Both the position numbers and the translations under genes were made by a program. From a phage: a stretch of 64,000 bases of DNA. The stretch lies in sequence record PZ452609.1, one strand, 5' to 3'. Positions 56,164 to 60,285 of the stretch are shown here, in pieces. Under the pieces are notes generated by a model. The model was given only the letters and a program-made list of their open reading frames with translations, ran no database searches and was not told the origin of the DNA. The number at the start of each line of letters is the position of its first letter. The first letter of the stretch is position 1.

Positions 56164-56244
56164 TTTTAAAAGATGTTGACAGACTCTATAAAGTTGCTCT
56201 AAAGTCTGTCACATCAAACAACAAATGAGAGAAGAGAGTAAAAT

Positions 56245-57660
56245 ATGAGCGAGTTATTTAAACATGCGCACCTTCATGCAGGTCGAACTGAAAATGGTGC
56301 TGTAAACCATACTTCATCAATGTCTGCTCTTGTAGACTTTTACAAAGCTGCTGGTTCAAGCCGTAGCAATGTAGAAATCTTACCAGACCTGTTCTACAAA
56401 GCTTTGCGTGAGGATGTTGATGTTGCAGTTCGTATTTTACTGCATATGCGAGATGTACGAGAAGGTATGGGTGAGCGTAAAGCCTTCAGAGCTGTTTTAC
56501 TTCAAGCGATTGAAGACAAAGTTTTAGAGTCTACGCAGGTTCTTCGCATTATGGATAAGATTGCAGAACTTGGTCGTTTTGATGACTTCAAAATCTTCGT
56601 AGGTACTCGTTTCGAGACAGATGCCTTCAAACATTTAGAAGCAGCATTACTAGACCCTGCAACAGCAGGTTTGGCGGCTAAGTGGTTACCACGAGTCAAA
56701 CCACGTCATAAGCAGTTTGTAAAACGTTTCTGCAAGTTTGCCAACTTGAGTGAGAAAGAGTACCGCACACTGTTGTCTGCACTATCTGATACAGTTGAGC
56801 AAAAAATCTCTGCTAATGAGTTTGGTAAGATTGACTACAGTAAGATTCCTTCACTTGCTGCTGCACGTTACCAAAAACTGTTTAACCGTAAAGATGGAGA
56901 GCGTTACAAAGCTTACATCGAGTCCTTATCAAAAGGTGAGACTAAGATTAACGCTGGTGCTGTTTACCCATACGATGTGATTAAATCTGTCAAGTATGGT
57001 AATGCAGATGTTGCTAATGAGCAGTGGAAAGCACTACCAAACTGGATGGCAGAAGGTGAAAACATCTTGTGTATGTCTGATGTATCAAGTTCAATGTCTT
57101 GGGTGAATTTTGGCTCCATTACTGCTCTGGATATTGGTGTATCACTTGCCTTGTATGTAGCAGAACGCAATACAGGTTGCTTTAAGAATGAGTTGATGGT
57201 TTATTCAACAAACCCTCACTTCATCGAACTGAGTGGTGATTTACGAAACCGTCATCGTCAGGTGATGCGACACGTTGAATATGGCTCAACTAACTTACAA
57301 GCAGCTTTTGACCGCATTCTTGAAACAGGTAAAAGAAACAACTTGACTCAGAAAGATATGCCAAGTAAGCTTATCATCTTCTCCGATATGGAGTTTAATC
57401 AGGTTGATGGAGCTAACGGTCGTACAAACTTTGAAGCAATTCAGAGTAAGTACAAAAAAGCTGGATATGAGATGCCACAACTGGTATTCTGGTACTTAGC
57501 AAACCGTAATGGTACTTGCGAAGTATCTGTTAAGGATAACGGTGTAGCAATGGTATCAGGGTTCTCTCCAGCCACTTTAAAAGCTCTGCTTGGTGGTGAG
57601 AAGTTTGACCCAATCAGTGTAATGCTCAAAGCAGTAATGATTGACCGTTATATCTGGTAA
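56245..57660 (+). CDS. Ro60-like protein (TROVE-like N-terminal region + von Willebrand A domain)
   Basis: C-terminal MIDAS-like DVSSSM..STNLQ..FSDMEF (vWA); N-terminal NGAVNHTSSMSALVDFYKAAGSS follows the Ro60 TROVE pattern G.V...T....L..F...GS; immediately upstream of the tRNA cluster. Confidence 0.5.
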   Translation: MSELFKHAHLHAGRTENGAVNHTSSMSALVDFYKAAGSSRSNVEILPDLFYKALREDVDVAVRILLHMRDVREGMGERKAFRAVLLQAIEDKVLESTQVLRIMDKIAELGRFDDFKIFVGTRFETDAFKHLEAALLDPATAGLAAKWLPRVKPRHKQFVKRFCKFANLSEKEYRTLLSALSDTVEQKISANEFGKIDYSKIPSLAAARYQKLFNRKDGERYKAYIESLSKGETKINAGAVYPYDVIKSVKYGNADVANEQWKALPNWMAEGENILCMSDVSSSMSWVNFGSITALDIGVSLALYVAERNTGCFKNELMVYSTNPHFIELSGDLRNRHRQVMRHVEYGSTNLQAAFDRILETGKRNNLTQKDMPSKLIIFSDMEFNQVDGANGRTNFEAIQSKYKKAGYEMPQLVFWYLANRNGTCEVSVKDNGVAMVSGFSPATLKALLGGEKFDPISVMLKAVMIDRYIW

Positions 57661-57678
57661 AAAGTTTTAAAAAGGGTA

Positions 57679-57707
57679 TTGACAATGTGTTTAATACCCT
57701 TTAATAT
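57679..57707 (+). promoter_or_regulatory. sigma70-like promoter upstream of the tRNA cluster
   Basis: TTGACA, 17-bp spacer, TAATAT. Confidence 0.45.
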
Positions 57708-57825
57708 GTTCTACATAGAAACGAAATGAGAGCTTTTCTAAGATGCTGAAAAATATTTTAAAAAAGTTCTTGACAACCACTAAAAAATAATGTTAAAGTG
57801 GTTACATAAAGTTTGAAAAGTTTAT

Positions 57826-57905
57826 CTCCGTTTAGCTCAGTCTGGTTTAGCAGCACTTGCTTTGGGAGCAAGGGGTCGAGGGTTCAAATCCTTCAACGGA
57901 GACCA
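57826..57905 (+). tRNA. tRNA-Pro (anticodon TGG)
   Basis: Hand-folded cloverleaf, anticodon loop ttTGGga, T-loop ggttcaaatcc, 3' CCA encoded. Confidence 0.7.
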
Positions 57906-57912
57906 AATTAAT

Positions 57913-57990
57913 GTTCCAGTAGACAAAATGGTAAAGTCACCACTCTTTCAAAGTGGATATTTGAGGGTTCAAATCCCTTCTGGAACGCCA
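57913..57990 (+). tRNA. tRNA-Glu (anticodon TTC)
   Basis: Anticodon loop ctTTCaa; acceptor gttccag/ctggaac. Confidence 0.7.
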
Positions 57991-58080
57991 GTTTTGACAG
58001 AAGACCAATTACAGCAAACTTAATCTACTCATCTGAAAGTTAATCGGACAAAGAAGATATTTGGTCTGGTCATTAAGAAT

Positions 58081-58157
58081 TGCGGGTATAGAGAAAGGGC
58101 GTCTCACATGTCTCATTAGCATGGTATCGGCAGGTTCGACTCCTGCACCCGCCTCCA
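58081..58157 (+). tRNA. tRNA-Met (anticodon CAT); possible 1:72 mismatch (initiator-like) or register ambiguity
   Basis: Anticodon loop ctCATta; T-arm gcagg-ttcgact-cctgc. Confidence 0.6.
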
Positions 58158-58241
58158 AATTTACAGAAGACCGTTTACAGCAATATTTATTAAATTTTTA
58201 GCGGAAAAAATTGAAATATACGGTCTGGTAATACTAAACAT

Positions 58242-58318
58242 GGTTAGGAAGCACATAAGGTATGTGCGGTCGCCTGTTAAGCGAATGGCACAGGGTTCGA
58301 ATCCCTGACTAACCGCCA
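58242..58318 (+). tRNA. tRNA-Asn (anticodon GTT)
   Basis: Anticodon loop ctGTTaa. Confidence 0.65.
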
Positions 58319-58387
58319 AATTTAGGAGAGAAGCGATTGCTCACCGATTTGTAAGGTACAAGTCCTTAGCCTGAATAGAAATTAAAT

Positions 58388-58475
58388 GTGTCGTTATCCC
58401 GTAGATGGTAGCGGTGGGGACTGTAAATCCCTTGTCATTGAGACTCGGTAGGTTCGACTCCTACACGGCACACCA
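58388..58475 (+). tRNA. tRNA-Tyr (anticodon GTA), long variable arm
   Basis: Anticodon loop ctGTAaa; about 14-nt variable arm. Confidence 0.7.
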
Positions 58476-58480
58476 ATAAA

Positions 58481-58558
58481 GGTTATGTAGTTTAATTTGG
58501 TTAAAATACTCCCCTGTCACGGGAGATGATGAGGGTTCAAATCCCTTCGTAACCGCCA
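58481..58558 (+). tRNA. tRNA-Asp (anticodon GTC)
   Basis: Anticodon loop ctGTCac. Confidence 0.65.
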
Positions 58559-58705
58559 ATTTTGAGAGGGCTATTTAGCCCCTCCCTTAAAGGGTTCTTA
58601 CGAGTATTCTTTAAAGGAGCAGAAGACCAAATACAGCAAGTTATTTAAAATTTCAAGCCAATTTAATTTTGAAAAATTTAAAACTTGGTCTGGCTCAACA
58701 AATTT

Positions 58706-58838
58706 ACAGAAGACCGTTTACAGCAAAACTTAAACAATCTATTTCTCCGGTAAAGAAAAGGCGAAGGTTCGATTCCTTCACTCGGCAGATGTCGAGTTGG
58801 TGTAATGGTAGCACTTAAGATGATAAACAACGGTCTGG
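58706..58838 (+). ncRNA. permuted tRNA-like element, candidate Y RNA-like (YrlA-type) RNA
   Basis: Order is anticodon-like stem-loop, T-arm gaagg-ttcgatt-ccttc, acceptor 3' strand actcggc, short loop, acceptor 5' strand gtcgagt, D-arm tggtgtaatggtagcac; enclosed by an 8-bp helix agaccgtt/aacggtct. Confidence 0.45.
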
Positions 58839-58840
58839 TA

Positions 58841-58982
58841 ATTATCTTTGTAGATAAGTTATTAAGCTTACCTGTGAGTATGCGACCACAAAGGGTGAAA
58901 GGGTAAATTCTAGATTTAAACCCAAAAAGGCACATCGCTACAGACCTTAAGCAAGTCTGGGTAGCTTATCTACAAAGATAAT
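58841..58982. repeat. 19-bp perfect inverted repeat enclosing about 100 nt
   Basis: attatctttgtagataag at 58841 and cttatctacaaagataat at 58963. Confidence 0.7.
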
Positions 58983-58987
58983 TTAAT

Positions 58988-59063
58988 GGAAGTGTAGCAG
59001 AATGGTGATGCGGCAGACTTTTAATCTGACAGGCGATGGGTTCGAATCCCTCCACTTCTACCA
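58988..59063 (+). tRNA. tRNA-Lys (anticodon TTT)
   Basis: Anticodon loop ctTTTaa. Confidence 0.65.
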
Positions 59064-59219: not shown

Positions 59220-59295
59220 GCTGGTATAGTTAAGAAGGTTATAACACTCCCCTGATAAGGGAACATCGGTGGTTCGATTCCACCTACCAGTACCA
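59220..59295 (+). tRNA. tRNA-Ile (anticodon GAT)
   Basis: Anticodon loop ctGATaa. Confidence 0.65.
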
Positions 59296-59310
59296 ATTTC
59301 AATAAAGTTG

Positions 59311-59339
59311 TTGACATTGAGATGTGACTACTTTATAGT
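59311..59339 (+). promoter_or_regulatory. strong sigma70-like promoter inside the tRNA cluster
   Basis: TTGACA, 17-bp spacer, TATAGT. Confidence 0.55.
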
Positions 59340-59570
59340 AACCTTAGTTTTCGTTGCGTAGCGTCTATTTTGCAAATTTAAAATAAATGCAAACGACAAT
59401 GTTTTTCTGGCAGTAGCTTGATAGGCTAAACACCAGTGAGGTCTTCCAATCCCTCATCAAAGAATTTGGCGTACTAGCCCACGGTATGATTAATAAGGTG
59501 GGCAACATTCTAAAGGGTATCCCTTATGGGGCTTGGCTTAAATGCAATGAGTACCCTTTAAAATGTTAAT

Positions 59571-59880: not shown

Positions 59881-60285
59881 ATGAAACTTTGTAGAAAATG
59901 TTCTCAAGAGAAGCCTTTAAGTTGCTTTCATAAAAGAGGGAATGGCTATCAGTCTGCTTGCAAAGATTGTAAAGCTAAGTACTCAGCAAAGAGATACAAA
60001 GAAGACCCTACTTATAAAGCAAAAAGGAAAGTTAGAGCAAAATATGACAAAAAGAGAAACAGAGAGTTCCTTAGTAGATATAAAAAGTTTTGCAAATGCA
60101 GAATATGTGGTGAATCCGAGCCAGTAGCTTTAGATTTTCATCACTTAGACCCTAAAGAGAAAGATTTTGCTCCAAGCAATCTTAAGACTTACTCTAGGGG
60201 AACTATTAAGCGTGAAGTTCGTAAGTGTGTTGTGCTTTGCTCAAACTGTCATAGGAAAGTTCATGCAGGACTGTTAAGTATTTAG
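59881..60285 (+). CDS. HNH endonuclease embedded in the tRNA cluster
   Basis: Cys-rich N-terminus plus FHHLDPKEKDF..CSNCHRKVH HNH motif. Confidence 0.7.
   Translation: MKLCRKCSQEKPLSCFHKRGNGYQSACKDCKAKYSAKRYKEDPTYKAKRKVRAKYDKKRNREFLSRYKKFCKCRICGESEPVALDFHHLDPKEKDFAPSNLKTYSRGTIKREVRKCVVLCSNCHRKVHAGLLSI

What the first reader, a model, noticed from the sequence alone, without database searches (positions are those of the whole stretch)
56245..58848. Ro60-like (TROVE+vWA) gene followed by a circularly permuted tRNA-like element: candidate phage Rsr/Y-RNA module
The 471-aa protein at 56245-57660 has a C-terminal vWA/MIDAS pattern (DVSSSM..T..D) and an N-terminal stretch following the Ro60 TROVE signature. 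About 1 kb downstream, at 58741-58813, tRNA elements occur in permuted order: anticodon-like stem-loop, variable region, T-arm, acceptor 3' strand, 4-nt loop, acceptor 5' strand, D-arm. That is the arrangement expected if the RNA ends sit where the anticodon stem would be and the acceptor stem is capped by a loop. The module is closed by an 8-bp helix (agaccgtt at 58710 with aacggtct at 58828). Bacterial Y RNA-like (YrlA) RNAs that partner with Rsr are described as tRNA mimics of this kind. A phage carrying both partners next to its tRNA genes would suggest the phage uses Ro60 for RNA quality control or decay.
Basis: partly seen in the sequence, partly recalled or inferred. Interest (0 to 1): 0.85.

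Follow-up and report, generated by a model that had tools for sequence, protein, structure and literature searches.

The report
Phage Ro60-like protein with partner RNAs
A Felix O1-type phage encodes a ring-shaped Ro60-like RNA-binding protein and, just downstream among its tRNA genes, four small RNAs that share one conserved protein-binding-type stem, one of them carrying a rearranged tRNA; the same protein-RNA pairing recurs in hundreds of distant phages and in bacterial RNA-repair operons, and has not been described.

The parts
56176..56205 (+). sigma-70-like promoter candidate upstream of the protein gene (TTGACA-18-TAAAGT)
   Evidence: Consensus scan, 10 of 12 matches. This is a consensus match only; the total number of such sites in the region is not above shuffles.
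56245..57660 (+). Gene for the 471-aa Ro60-fold protein (Pfam DUF2828 + DUF7788; PHROG 850 'RNA-binding protein')
57064..57609 (+). vWA-type C-terminal domain (aa 274-455); MIDAS DxSxS at nt 57079-57093, with T349 and D381
   Evidence: DUF7788 match at aa 274-455. D279, S281, S283, T349 and D381 are invariant in 49 homologues. Weak profile match to the Ro60 vWA of 1yvp. vWA_Ro60 PF25045 matches 11 of 49 members.
57679..57799 (+). Two sigma-70-like promoter candidates (57679-57707, 57770-57799) ahead of the tRNA/small-RNA cluster
   Evidence: Consensus scan, 10 of 12 matches each. Inferred to drive the cluster; not shown.
57995..58072 (+). Module M1, short payload: UGAC-AGA-AGACCAA-U-UACAGCAA...UUGGUCU-G-GUCA. 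Lies between tRNA-Glu (ends 57990) and tRNA-Met (starts 58081).
   Evidence: Motif search, fold, model R1 51.5 bits, tRNA positions.
58161..58231 (+). Module M2, short payload: UUAC-AGA-AGACCGU-U-UACAGCAA...ACGGUCU-G-GUAA. Lies between tRNA-Met and tRNA-Asn.
   Evidence: R1 56.4 bits. Weak full-length match to Rfam Dicty_Class_I_RNA, 21.1 bits.
58617..58696 (+). Module M3, short payload: GAGC-AGA-AGACCAA-A-UACAGCAA...UUGGUCU-G-GCUC
   Evidence: fold z-score -2.67. R1 45.0 bits.
58704..58841 (+).
   Evidence: Sequence. The minimum-energy fold gives four hairpins inside the closing helix. Conserved in 246 phage records at >=80% coverage and annotated as a tRNA in only a few of them. Alignment with SUSP1, Sf13 and Moogle.
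58711..58726 (+). M4 5' strand AGACCGUU (58711-58718) followed by the UACAGCAA motif (58719-58726)
58742..58758 (+). M4 stem-loop with a 5-bp stem and 7-nt loop CCGGUAA. It is either the 'V' arm in YrlA terms or an anticodon-arm equivalent (GGU).
   Evidence: The Rfam tRNA model aligns it as the anticodon arm (22 bits). It is less conserved in Moogle.
58763..58779 (+). M4 T-arm GAAGG-UUCGAUU-CCUUC
   Evidence: Invariant across four genera.
58780..58797 (+). M4 acceptor-like hairpin: 7 bp ACUCGGC/GUCGAGU capped by AGAU
   Evidence: Compensatory changes: Moogle has ACCCUUC/GAAGGGU with an 8-nt loop, and SUSP1 has ACACG/CGUGU.
58798..58814 (+). M4 U8-G9 equivalents and the D-arm GUGU-AAUGGUA-GCAC (A14, G18G19 and A21 equivalents present)
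   Evidence: Invariant except one loop base across genera.
58829..58841 (+). M4 3' strand AACGGUCU, then G, then the outer helix strand GUAA
58842..58981 (+). Adjacent 140-nt structured element closed by a helix of about 22 bp. It contains a hairpin CAGAC-CUUAAGCAA-GUCUG that resembles a payload-less module. Whether it belongs to the system is uncertain.
   Evidence: Fold z-score -5.5, 0 of 200 shuffles as stable. SUSP1 and Moogle keep the same fold with a different helix sequence.

Best explanation
The window holds a divergent Ro60/Y-RNA-type ribonucleoprotein system. The 471-aa protein is a Ro60-fold ring (helical repeats plus a vWA/MIDAS domain) of the DUF2828/DUF7788 family. Four small RNAs (M1-M4) are transcribed with the phage tRNA cluster. 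They are probably released by the tRNA-processing enzymes that cut the flanking tRNAs.

Each RNA presents the same protein-binding platform. Its two ends form a 7-8-bp stem that opens with an invariant A-U and G-C pair (5' AAG, 3' CUG). A single-stranded UACAGCAA follows the 5' strand directly. The protein is inferred to bind this platform, as Ro60 binds the conserved stem of Y RNAs.

The variable interior is the effector end. In M1-M3 it is a short A/U-rich hairpin. In M4 it is a complete tRNA body in permuted order, with a capped 7-bp acceptor stem. That body can mimic tRNA toward tRNA-recognising enzymes: modification enzymes, RNase P, the CCA-adding enzyme, or host exoribonucleases and tRNA-targeting nucleases.

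By analogy with Rsr-YrlA-PNPase, and given the DUF2828-RtcB operons in bacteria, the complex most likely acts in RNA surveillance or repair during infection. It could tether or gate a host RNA-processing enzyme, or protect or check the phage's own 27 tRNAs.

Shown: the fold, the motif, covariation, and genomic linkage across distant lineages. Inferred: physical binding, the RNA ends, and the biological role.
For: PROTEIN
- AF2 model: pLDDT 89.8, pTM 0.89.
- Foldseek: the top 11 PDB hits are all Ro60, with 519-554 aligned columns and E about 1e-7; isolated vWA domains follow at E>=1.7e-3.
- MIDAS residues are invariant.

RNA IN THE WINDOW
- The motif occurs 4 times against 0.04 expected.
- The stems covary between copies: AA/UU versus GU/AC, and the outer helix UGAC/GUCA, UUAC/GUAA, GAGC/GCUC.

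LINKAGE IN PHAGE CONTIGS
- In 80 phage contigs holding a homologue, TACAGCAA occurs 113 times on the gene strand and 26 times on the other, with about 20 expected per strand.
- Strict modules: 119 on the gene strand versus 6 on the other. Of real motif occurrences 119 of 259 carry the stem, against 9 of 141 for control 8-mers.
- 108 of 307 relaxed modules lie within 500 nt of the gene.
- 47 of 75 loci at 38-47% protein identity have at least one strict module within 1.5 kb.

COVARIATION AND MODEL SEARCHES
- Among 25 short modules, two stem pairs are invariant and five change on both sides; 99.4% of cells are paired.
- Covariance model R1: 91 of 91 hits on the gene strand in phage loci.
- In an independent set of 80 bacterial/MAG loci, 50 of 50 hits are on the gene strand, mostly 10-300 nt upstream of the gene.

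tRNA-LIKE PAYLOAD
- The T and D arms are invariant and the acceptor hairpin is compensated across Felixounavirus, Suspvirus and Mooglevirus.
- The same T/acceptor-hairpin/D design occurs in distant modules.
- The Rfam YrlA model hits that core inside modules: L018, 39.2 bits, E 1.7e-7 in a local search; L075 and L010, 24-31 bits.

CONTEXT AND PRECEDENT
- Bacterial order: WYL regulator, module, DUF2828, RtcB.
- RtcB lies directly downstream in 20 of 80 bacterial loci.
- M. smegmatis YrlA has a 7-bp acceptor stem; it is cut by RNase P and receives CCA (PMC4201824).
- Phage phiLo Ro60 binds phage Y-like RNAs and host PNPase (PMC12135203).
Against: - There is no experimental evidence here that the RNAs are stable species or that the protein binds them. 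The RNA ends are unknown.
- The protein fails the Pfam TROVE model. The PDB sequence search gives only E 0.84 to the Ro60 vWA domain.
- M4 gets no Rfam YrlA hit at E<=10 and lacks the GNCGAA motif. My own model R1 also does not span M4's long insert.
- The stem modules were picked with a pairing criterion, so the 99.4% paired figure is partly built in. The fair controls are the strand asymmetry, the control motifs and the independent locus set.
- A G-U versus A-C test for strand-specific pairing was uninformative.
- The junction helix CUUAA/UUAAG predicted for M4 is not kept in SUSP1 or Sf13.
- About a quarter to a third of homologue loci showed no module with my detectors.
- No RtcB or RNA ligase was found in the window or in the phage loci, so the repair link is indirect for phages.
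Confidence: 0.72

Rival explanations
1. M4 is a decayed remnant of a tandem tRNA duplication: the 3' two-thirds of one copy followed by the 5' third of the next. It has no function, and the repeated stems are unrelated intergenic repeats.
For: - A tandem duplication followed by two deletions would give exactly this permuted order.
- ARAGORN does not call it a tRNA, and the Rfam tRNA model scores only 22 bits against a threshold of 29.
- Some GenBank records label the spot tRNA-OTHER, pseudo or tRNA-Thr.
- Some distant modules still carry ACCA after the acceptor 3' strand, which hints at a tRNA-gene origin.
Against: - The T and D arms are invariant, while the acceptor hairpin changes by compensatory substitutions across three genera.
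- The same T/acceptor-hairpin/D arrangement recurs in unrelated sequence form in phages whose protein is only about 40% identical. There it is always inside the AAG-stem-UACAGCAA module and next to the DUF2828 gene.
- A tRNA origin is likely. Decay is not.
Confidence: 0.04
2. M4 is a true permuted tRNA gene. Its transcript is opened at the acceptor stem (RNase P, 3' trimming, CCA addition) and serves in translation as a two-piece or re-ligated tRNA with anticodon GGU. The protein is incidental.
For: - All four tRNA arms are present, together with U8, G18G19 and T-loop equivalents and a 7-bp acceptor stem.
- L075 11686-11810 has a textbook anticodon loop, CUGUUAA.
- Some modules encode ACCA at the acceptor 3' end.
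- M. smegmatis YrlA is cleaved by RNase P and receives CCA in vivo.
- Permuted tRNA genes exist in the red alga Cyanidioschyzon merolae (my own knowledge: Soma et al. 2007).
Against: - The M4 loop has C at the position of the universal U33.
- Thirty nucleotides of linker plus the protein-binding stem would remain attached at position 26/27.
- M1-M3, and most modules elsewhere, carry no tRNA body yet keep the same stem and motif. The conserved unit is therefore the stem platform, not the tRNA.
- The stem-loop is poorly conserved in Moogle.
Confidence: 0.07
3. The modules are RNA-processing or insulator elements of tRNA clusters, for example RNase E/III entry sites or spacers that help tRNA maturation. 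They act independently of the DUF2828 protein.
For: - In the window they sit tightly between tRNA genes, 5-10 nt from tRNA ends.
- In one clade they flank tRNA-Met and tmRNA genes 6-8 kb away from the protein gene.
- About half of the homologue loci contain tRNA clusters on the same strand.
Against: - Loci with no tRNA gene within 10 kb still have 2-4 modules abutting the DUF2828 gene (L065, L048, L046, L057, L041).
- In bacterial loci the module lies between a WYL regulator and the DUF2828-RtcB genes, with no tRNA cluster.
- An invariant 8-nt single-stranded motif plus invariant terminal pairs is more typical of a protein-binding site.
Confidence: 0.1
4. The repeats act as DNA: inverted-repeat recombination, homing or mobile-element sites that shuffle cargo such as tRNA fragments.
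For: - Short inverted repeats flank variable 'cargo', and there are several copies per genome.
- An HNH endonuclease gene lies in the same cluster.
Against: - Strand polarity is absolute relative to the gene and the tRNAs: 91 to 0 and 50 to 0.
- The asymmetric single-stranded motif occurs on one arm only.
- The stem sequence differs freely between copies while pairing is kept.
- The payloads have RNA-level features such as T and D arms.
Confidence: 0.03

Closest known systems
Bacterial Rsr (Ro60) with YrlA/YrlB Y RNAs, e.g. the Salmonella rsr-yrlBA-rtcBA operon, M. smegmatis and D. radiodurans (Chen et al. 2014, PMC4201824)
   Same: - A ring-shaped Ro60 fold with a vWA/MIDAS domain.
- Several small RNAs encoded next to the gene.
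- One RNA with a tRNA-like domain in the order V, T, acceptor hairpin, D, and others without it (like YrlB).
- A 7-bp acceptor stem, as in the RNase P-cleaved M. smegmatis YrlA.
- Bacterial relatives of the protein sit directly upstream of RtcB.
   Different: - The protein does not match the TROVE HMM; it is DUF2828/DUF7788, 471 aa against about 500-540.
- The RNA-binding platform is AAG-stem-UACAGCAA...CUG rather than GNCGAAN0-1G.
- The Rfam YrlA model does not detect M4 and reaches only 24-39 bits (threshold 69) on relatives, and only over the tRNA-like core.
- Payloads are far more varied, including normal-order tRNAs and 150-250-nt inserts.
- The bacterial operons use a WYL-type regulator rather than RtcR.
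Phage-encoded canonical Ro60 with Y-like RNAs: Thermus phage phiLo phiRo60 with Yrl1/Yrl2 (PMC12135203); mycobacteriophages, CcrColossus and Bacillus phage G (Chen 2014)
   Same: - A phage carries both a Ro60-fold protein and adjacent Y-like RNAs.
   Different: - Those are TROVE-annotated proteins whose RNAs carry the CGAA motif.
- Here both the protein family and the RNA motif differ.
- Here the RNAs are embedded in a 27-tRNA cluster.
- Nothing is known about PNPase binding in this case.
Dictyostelium Class I RNAs (Rfam RF01414; Kjellin et al. 2021, PMC7919456)
   Same: - About 60 nt long.
- The 5' and 3' ends form a short stem whose sequence varies but whose pairing is kept.
- A conserved AAG start whose G pairs with the C of a conserved CUG(U) end.
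- CCUUACAGCAA immediately after the 5' strand; the phage modules have (n)UACAGCAA at the same place.
- A variable interior with an A-rich tract before the 3' strand.
- Clustered multi-copy genes.
- RF01414 is the only non-tRNA Rfam family that recurrently touches the modules.
   Different: - All scores (12.8-26.9 bits) are below the 41.5-bit threshold.
- Class I RNAs are eukaryotic, have a DUSE promoter and are reported only in dictyostelids.
- Their known direct binder is the RRM protein Rnp1A/CIBP.
- The spacer between stem and UACAGCAA is one nucleotide longer.
- It was not tested whether Dictyostelium has a DUF2828 protein.
Circularly permuted tRNA genes of Cyanidioschyzon merolae (my own knowledge: Soma et al. 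2007)
   Same: The 3' part of a tRNA is encoded upstream of the 5' part, and the acceptor strands are joined by a short intervening sequence.
   Different: - Those are matured into ordinary tRNAs through a circular intermediate made by the splicing endonuclease and ligase.
- Here the break lies at position 26/27 and is closed by a conserved protein-binding-type stem.
- Most sister modules here carry no tRNA.

Membership tests
Ro60 / Rsr (TROVE, Pfam PF05731) | Sequence match to the TROVE profile | tested here: not met
   There is no TROVE hit at E<=1 for the window protein or for any of 49 family members. phmmer against the PDB finds no Ro60. The family profile gives E 0.84, and only to the vWA part of 1yvp.
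Ro60 / Rsr (TROVE, Pfam PF05731) | Helical-repeat ring plus a C-terminal vWA domain (the Ro60 fold) | tested here: met
Ro60 / Rsr (TROVE, Pfam PF05731) | MIDAS motif (DxSxS...T...D) in the vWA domain | tested here: met
   D279, S281, S283, T349 and D381 are invariant in alignment A1.
Ro60 / Rsr (TROVE, Pfam PF05731) | Binds Y RNAs through a conserved stem | not testable with these tools
   Only a proxy is available: a conserved stem-plus-motif RNA is linked to the gene on the same strand across lineages with 33-47% protein identity.
Ro60 / Rsr (TROVE, Pfam PF05731) | Association with RNA-repair genes (RtcB) in bacteria | tested here: met
   This holds for bacterial relatives, not the phage. 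RtcB lies directly downstream in 20 of 80 loci and an RNA-ligase-like gene in 6. None was found in the window or the phage loci.
YrlA (Rfam RF02553) | Covariance-model score at or above the gathering threshold (69 bits) | tested here: not met
   M4 gets no hit at E<=10 in either the 6.4-kb or the 171-nt search. Related modules score 39.2, 31.4, 24.7 and 24.5 bits; the two best match only the T/AS/D core, model positions 23-89.
YrlA (Rfam RF02553) | GNCGAAN0-1G motif near the 5' end (putative Rsr-binding site) | tested here: not met
   The 5' region reads ACAGAAGACCGUUUACAGCAA. It contains CAGAAG but no GNCGAA. The conserved element is UACAGCAA instead.
YrlA (Rfam RF02553) | tRNA-like domain with stem-loops in the order V, T, acceptor-like hairpin, D | tested here: met
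   Positions 58742-58814. The T and D arms are invariant and the acceptor hairpin is compensated across genera. The definition is from Chen 2014.
YrlA (Rfam RF02553) | Encoded adjacent to the Ro60-type gene | tested here: met
   M4 starts 1044 nt after the stop codon, on the same strand. M1 starts 335 nt after it.
Dictyostelium Class I RNA (Rfam RF01414) | Covariance-model score at or above the gathering threshold (41.5 bits) | tested here: not met
   M2 21.1 bits, M4 12.8, L053 26.9, L018 15.7. All are full-length alignments but all are below threshold.
Dictyostelium Class I RNA (Rfam RF01414) | Short terminal stem with compensatory variation, AAG start, CUGU end, and the 11-nt CCUUACAGCAA after the 5' strand | tested here: inconclusive
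   The DNA shows AAG, a covarying 7-bp stem, 8-9 of the 11 motif bases at the same place, and CUG. The D. discoideum sequences come from supplement 19 of PMC7919456. The RNA ends in the phage are unknown, and the spacer differs by 1 nt.
Dictyostelium Class I RNA (Rfam RF01414) | DUSE promoter about 60 nt upstream; restricted to Dictyostelia | tested here: not met
   These are phage and bacterial loci with sigma-70-like promoters. Kjellin 2021 reports no members outside Dictyostelia.
Canonical tRNA gene | Detected as a tRNA with a contiguous cloverleaf | tested here: not met
   ARAGORN does not call it. The Rfam tRNA model scores 22 bits against 29, and covers only model positions 7-64. The arms are in permuted order.

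The most novel reading that the evidence does not exclude
The AAG-stem-UACAGCAA...CUG RNAs found here beside DUF2828 Ro60-fold proteins in phages and bacteria may be the same kind of RNA as the Dictyostelium Class I RNAs. Those are abundant, developmentally regulated, of unknown mechanism, and thought to be unique to dictyostelids. DUF2828 also occurs in eukaryotes and giant viruses.

On this reading, Class I RNAs are the 'Y RNAs' of a eukaryotic DUF2828 protein. A concrete prediction follows. DDB_G0281243 is the protein of unknown function that was pulled down with Class I RNA DdR-21 and is conserved in all Dictyostelia (bioRxiv 10.1101/2020.04.05.026054). It should be a DUF2828/DUF7788 Ro60-fold protein.
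Probability: 0.35. Interest if true: 0.93.

Novelty: new variant of a known kind. Interest (0 to 1): 0.8.

Why it matters
Ro60-Y RNA particles are conserved from bacteria to humans, where Ro60 is a major lupus and Sjogren autoantigen. Their partners and roles are still only partly understood.

This finding suggests a second, sequence-divergent branch of that system:
- It has its own RNA recognition element.
- It has a modular 'platform plus payload' design. The payload ranges from nothing, to tRNA mimics, to whole tRNAs.

It gives DUF2828/DUF7788 a concrete, testable function. It explains unannotated gaps in the tRNA clusters of Felix O1-like phages, which are used in typing and therapy. It links a phage RNP to bacterial RtcB repair operons, which bears on how phages with large tRNA sets cope with host attacks on tRNA.

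If the resemblance to Dictyostelium Class I RNAs is real, a long-standing orphan class of eukaryotic non-coding RNAs gains a candidate protein partner and mechanism.

Tried and rejected
1. Sequence-level Ro60 membership: Pfam TROVE, and phmmer and a family profile against the PDB, gave at best E 0.84. I rejected membership and kept fold-level homology.
2. The Rfam YrlA model on M4 found no hit. M4 is therefore not filed as YrlA.
3. My model R1, built on short modules, does not bridge M4's 102-nt insert; it gives a 13-bit mis-alignment. M4's place in the family rests on its near-identity with M2's stem and motif.
4. A G-U versus A-C mismatch count meant to show strand-specific RNA pairing was uninformative, 12 versus 14. 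One-mismatch 7-mers are mostly chance matches.
5. A relaxed one-mismatch motif scan was too noisy to use.
6. The CUUAA/UUAAG helix from the minimum-energy fold, read as an 'anticodon-stem equivalent' in M4, is not conserved in SUSP1 or Sf13, so I do not claim it.
7. Attempts to learn whether Dictyostelium has a DUF2828 protein all failed:
   - The AFDB libraries were unavailable.
   - Avesson 2011 and Aspegren 2004 are not held.
   - The proteome files in the Kjellin supplement are truncated, and motif and gene-id searches found nothing.
   - The literature search for DDB_G0281243 returned only the preprint.
8. Literature searches for DUF2828, for YrlA with phage, and for the UACAGCAA string found no prior description of this RNA. 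Burroughs & Aravind 2016 and the Sim/Wolin reviews could not be read, so prior mention of DUF2828 as Ro-like cannot be excluded.
9. The weak Rfam hits (Plastid-ycf2, tmRNA_permuted at 59237-59421, mir and sno families) were dismissed as tRNA-derived or chance.

Full report
WHERE WE ARE. The window is 100% identical to Escherichia coli O157 typing phage 15 over the region examined, 56200-59000. That phage is a Felix O1-like myovirus (Felixounavirus), and 247 phage records cover at least 80% of the region. The finding lies at the head of a cluster of 27 tRNA genes, all on the + strand.

THE PROTEIN. ORF 56245-57660 encodes 471 aa.
- Pfam assigns DUF7788 (aa 274-455, 1.7e-43) and DUF2828 (3.8e-29). 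TROVE does not appear at E<=1.
- PHROGs places it in phrog_850, 'RNA-binding protein'.
- Sequence searches of the PDB find nothing convincing. The single sequence finds no Ro60. A 49-member family profile gives E 0.84 to the vWA region of Xenopus Ro60.
- Eleven of 49 family members weakly match Pfam vWA_Ro60; none matches TROVE.
- The AlphaFold model built on that alignment is confident: pLDDT 89.8, pTM 0.89.
- Foldseek against the PDB returns eleven Ro60 structures as its top eleven hits, each aligned over the whole chain. They include Thermus phage phiLo, Xenopus, human complexes and D. radiodurans Rsr, at E about 1e-7. Isolated vWA domains follow at E>=1.7e-3.
- The MIDAS residues D279, S281, S283, T349 and D381 are invariant in the family.

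The protein therefore has the Ro60 fold, but it belongs to a family that sequence profiles keep apart from TROVE.

THE RNA IN THE WINDOW.
- a 5-bp stem with a 7-nt loop, 58742-58758
- a T-arm, 58763-58779
- a 7-bp acceptor-like hairpin capped by AGAU, 58780-58797
- U-G, then a D-arm, 58798-58814

The closing helix lies at 58711-58718 and 58829-58836, one base off the stated coordinates.

AGAAGACCNNNTACAGCAA occurs four times, at 57999, 58165, 58621 and 58708, against 0.04 expected. Each copy is answered downstream by nnGGUCUGGU. All four fold the same way:
- an outer 4-bp helix that differs between copies but stays paired (UGAC/GUCA, UUAC/GUAA, GAGC/GCUC)
- an AGA-versus-G internal loop
- a 7-8-bp helix AGACCnn/nnGGUCU whose variable positions covary (AA/UU, GU/AC)
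- a single-stranded UACAGCAA directly after the 5' strand

M1 (57995-58072), M2 (58161-58231) and M3 (58617-58696) enclose only 36-45 nt of A/U-rich sequence. M4 (58704-58841) encloses the permuted tRNA body. M1 and M2 sit 4-11 nt from the ends of the flanking tRNA genes. Ordinary tRNA processing would therefore release them.

IS M4 A DECAYED PSEUDOGENE? I aligned M4 with its counterparts in Suspvirus SUSP1 and in Mooglevirus Sf13 and Moogle. These share 73-88% identity over the region and none of the records annotates it.
- The T-arm and D-arm are invariant.
- The acceptor hairpin changes from ACUCGGC/GUCGAGU to ACCCUUC/GAAGGGU in Moogle and ACACG/CGUGU in SUSP1. Pairing is kept and the loop length varies.

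That is the signature of selection on structure. The first stem-loop is less conserved, like the 'V' arm of YrlA.

THE SAME PAIRING ELSEWHERE. I fetched 80 viral contigs that encode a homologue; 75 of them share only 38-47% protein identity with the window protein.
- TACAGCAA occurs 113 times on the gene strand and 26 times on the other, with about 20 expected per strand.
- I then required a stem of at least 6 bp ending at the motif and a CUG-type 3' end. This gives 119 modules on the gene strand and 6 on the other. Control 8-mers of the same base composition pass in 9 of 141 cases, against 119 of 259 for the real motif.
- Modules concentrate within 500 nt of the gene, upstream or downstream.
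- 47 of the 75 distant loci have at least one within 1.5 kb, and often 2-5.
- The consensus is uAA-AG-NNNNN-n-U[AU]C[ACU]GCAA ... NNNNN-CU-Gnua.
- In an alignment of 25 short modules, the first two pairs (A-U, G-C) never vary and the other five all change on both sides. Because the modules were picked for pairing, I treat this as description. I rely on the strand, control-motif and independent-set tests as evidence.
- A covariance model built from these 25 (R1) finds 91 matches at E<=0.1 in the window plus the viral loci, all on the gene strand. Many of them were not in the training set.

As an independent test I fetched 80 bacterial and MAG loci encoding homologues of 33-42% identity. R1 finds 50 matches there, all on the gene strand. 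Most lie 10-300 nt upstream of the gene (examples read).

PAYLOADS. Module spans run from 30 to about 250 nt.
- Many long modules carry the same permuted tRNA body, T-arm then capped acceptor hairpin then D-arm. Examples are L010 317-438, L011 2013-2131, L018 9828-9940, L063 (two) and L075 (three).
- The Rfam YrlA model recognises that core inside modules: L018 at 39.2 bits, E 1.7e-7 in a local search, model positions 24-84; L075 and L010 at 24-31 bits. It never reaches the 69-bit threshold. In the two best-scoring hits the flanking YrlA sequence, which includes the GNCGAA motif, is not matched.
- Some payloads encode ACCA after the acceptor 3' strand.
- Others are tRNA bodies in normal order, wrapped by the module stem. 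One scores 55 bits as a tRNA.

The conserved unit is thus the stem-plus-motif platform. The interior is an exchangeable payload.

CONTEXT AND FUNCTION. About half of the phage loci have tRNA clusters on the same strand, and several have tmRNA genes. Loci without any tRNA still keep modules against the gene.

In bacterial loci, mainly Clostridia, the order is WYL-domain regulator (divergent), module RNA, DUF2828 gene, RtcB. RtcB follows the gene directly in 20 of 80 loci, and an RNA-ligase-like gene does so in 6. This parallels the Salmonella rsr-yrlBA-rtcBA RNA-repair operon (Chen 2014, PMC4201824). Further precedents:
- Y RNA tethers Rsr to PNPase.
- M. smegmatis YrlA, which has a 7-bp acceptor stem like M4, is cut by RNase P and receives CCA in vivo.
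- Phage phiLo Ro60 binds two phage Y-like RNAs and host PNPase (PMC12135203).

I therefore commit to this reading: the protein binds the AAG-stem-UACAGCAA platform, and the payload engages tRNA-recognising or other RNA-processing factors. The particle acts in RNA surveillance, repair or decay control during infection.

Binding, the RNA ends and the role are inferred. Fold, motif, covariation and linkage are shown.

COMPARISON WITH KNOWN FAMILIES. It works like Rsr/YrlA, but it fails both curated membership tests (the TROVE HMM and the YrlA covariance model with its motif). Phage Ro60/Y-RNA pairs described so far are canonical TROVE proteins with CGAA-motif RNAs: mycobacteriophages, CcrColossus, Bacillus phage G and phiLo. 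A Vibrio jumbo-phage paper noted a 'Ro60-related' structural homologue without any RNA partner. No Rfam 15 family matches the modules, and full-text searches found no description of the motif. I could not read Burroughs & Aravind 2016 or the Wolin reviews, so an earlier remark that DUF2828 is Ro-like cannot be ruled out. I class this as a new variant of a known kind.

AN UNEXPECTED RESEMBLANCE. One non-tRNA Rfam family stands out for aligning full-length to modules from unrelated phages: Dicty_Class_I_RNA, at 12.8-26.9 bits against a threshold of 41.5. Class I RNAs are defined by (PMC7919456):
- a short terminal stem with compensatory variation
- a conserved AAG start whose G pairs with the C of a conserved CUGU end
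- the 11-nt CCUUACAGCAA right after the 5' strand

The curated D. discoideum sequences read GUUGAC-CUUACAGCAA-...-GUCAAC-UG, and DdR-66/67 read GGGCUUC-UUACAGCAA.... The phage and bacterial modules share the AAG/CUG ends, the stem, UACAGCAA at the same place (spacer one nucleotide shorter), an A-rich tract before the 3' strand, the size of about 60 nt, and clustering. L075 even reads AGGCUUC-UUACAGCAA.

DUF2828 occurs in eukaryotes and giant viruses: plant papers and mimivirus-like hits appear. The preprint version of the Class I paper names an uncharacterised protein, DDB_G0281243, among the four proteins pulled down with Class I RNA DdR-21. I could not find out what that protein is. The link therefore remains a hypothesis with a one-step test.

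VERDICT. The feature is a real and conserved protein-RNA system that appears to be undescribed.

Noticed in passing
window 58842-58981: A 140-nt element lies directly after M4, closed by a helix of about 22 bp (z-score -5.5). SUSP1 (L083 1352-1483) and Moogle (L084 1342-1474) keep the fold with a different helix sequence. Its inner hairpin CAGAC-CUUAAGCAA-GUCUG looks like a payload-less mini version of the UACAGCAA module.
   Followed up: partly
bioRxiv 10.1101/2020.04.05.026054 (literature, not a locus): The four proteins pulled down with Dictyostelium Class I RNA DdR-21 are GuaB, NdkC, CIBP/Rnp1A and DDB_G0281243. The last has unknown function and orthologues in all Dictyostelia. Its family could not be looked up here.
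   Followed up: partly
L099 2702-6683; also L143, L114, L124, L130: Bacterial (Clostridia) loci show the order WYL/WCX regulator (divergent), module RNA, DUF2828, RtcB. In L134, L132, L142 and L100 an aminotransferase and an RNA-ligase-like gene follow instead.
   Followed up: partly
L075 12520-12615; L042 9734-9833; L051 9757-9854: tRNA bodies in normal arm order sit inside the module stem. One scores 55 bits with the Rfam tRNA model, and ARAGORN calls the others Thr-UGU and Asn-AUU. UACAGCAA is inserted between the outer 5' strand and the D-arm.
   Followed up: partly
L079 9512-9680; L075 11820-11946; L063 11795-11917: These permuted tRNA-like payloads have ACCA after the acceptor 3' strand. 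In L079 a hairpin of about 40 nt separates that strand from the acceptor 5' strand. This suggests processing into two-piece molecules ending in CCA.
   Followed up: no
L020 1317-1767, L023 15822-16176, L025 16119-16479, L030 16694-17067, L038 13168-13521, L053 15715-16132, L054 18753-19121: Phage contigs that encode the DUF2828 protein often also carry a tmRNA gene on the same strand. In that clade R1 modules flank tRNA-Met genes 6-8 kb from the protein gene.
   Followed up: no
L018 15696-15922: A group I intron (Rfam 71.5 bits) lies in a phage contig with three modules upstream of its DUF2828 gene.
   Followed up: no
window 59881-60285: A 134-aa Cys-rich ORF lies inside the tRNA cluster. The ORF in the corresponding place of SUSP1's cluster is annotated as an HNH endonuclease.
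   Followed up: no
window 58559-58616: The spacer between tRNA-Asp and M3 contains a G+C-rich hairpin (GAGAGGGCUAUUUAGCCCCUCCC) of unknown role.
   Followed up: no
window 59237-59421: A weak Rfam match to tmRNA_permuted (29.2 bits, threshold 47) overlaps tRNA-Ile and the following 125-nt gap. It is probably driven by tRNA-like sequence.
   Followed up: no
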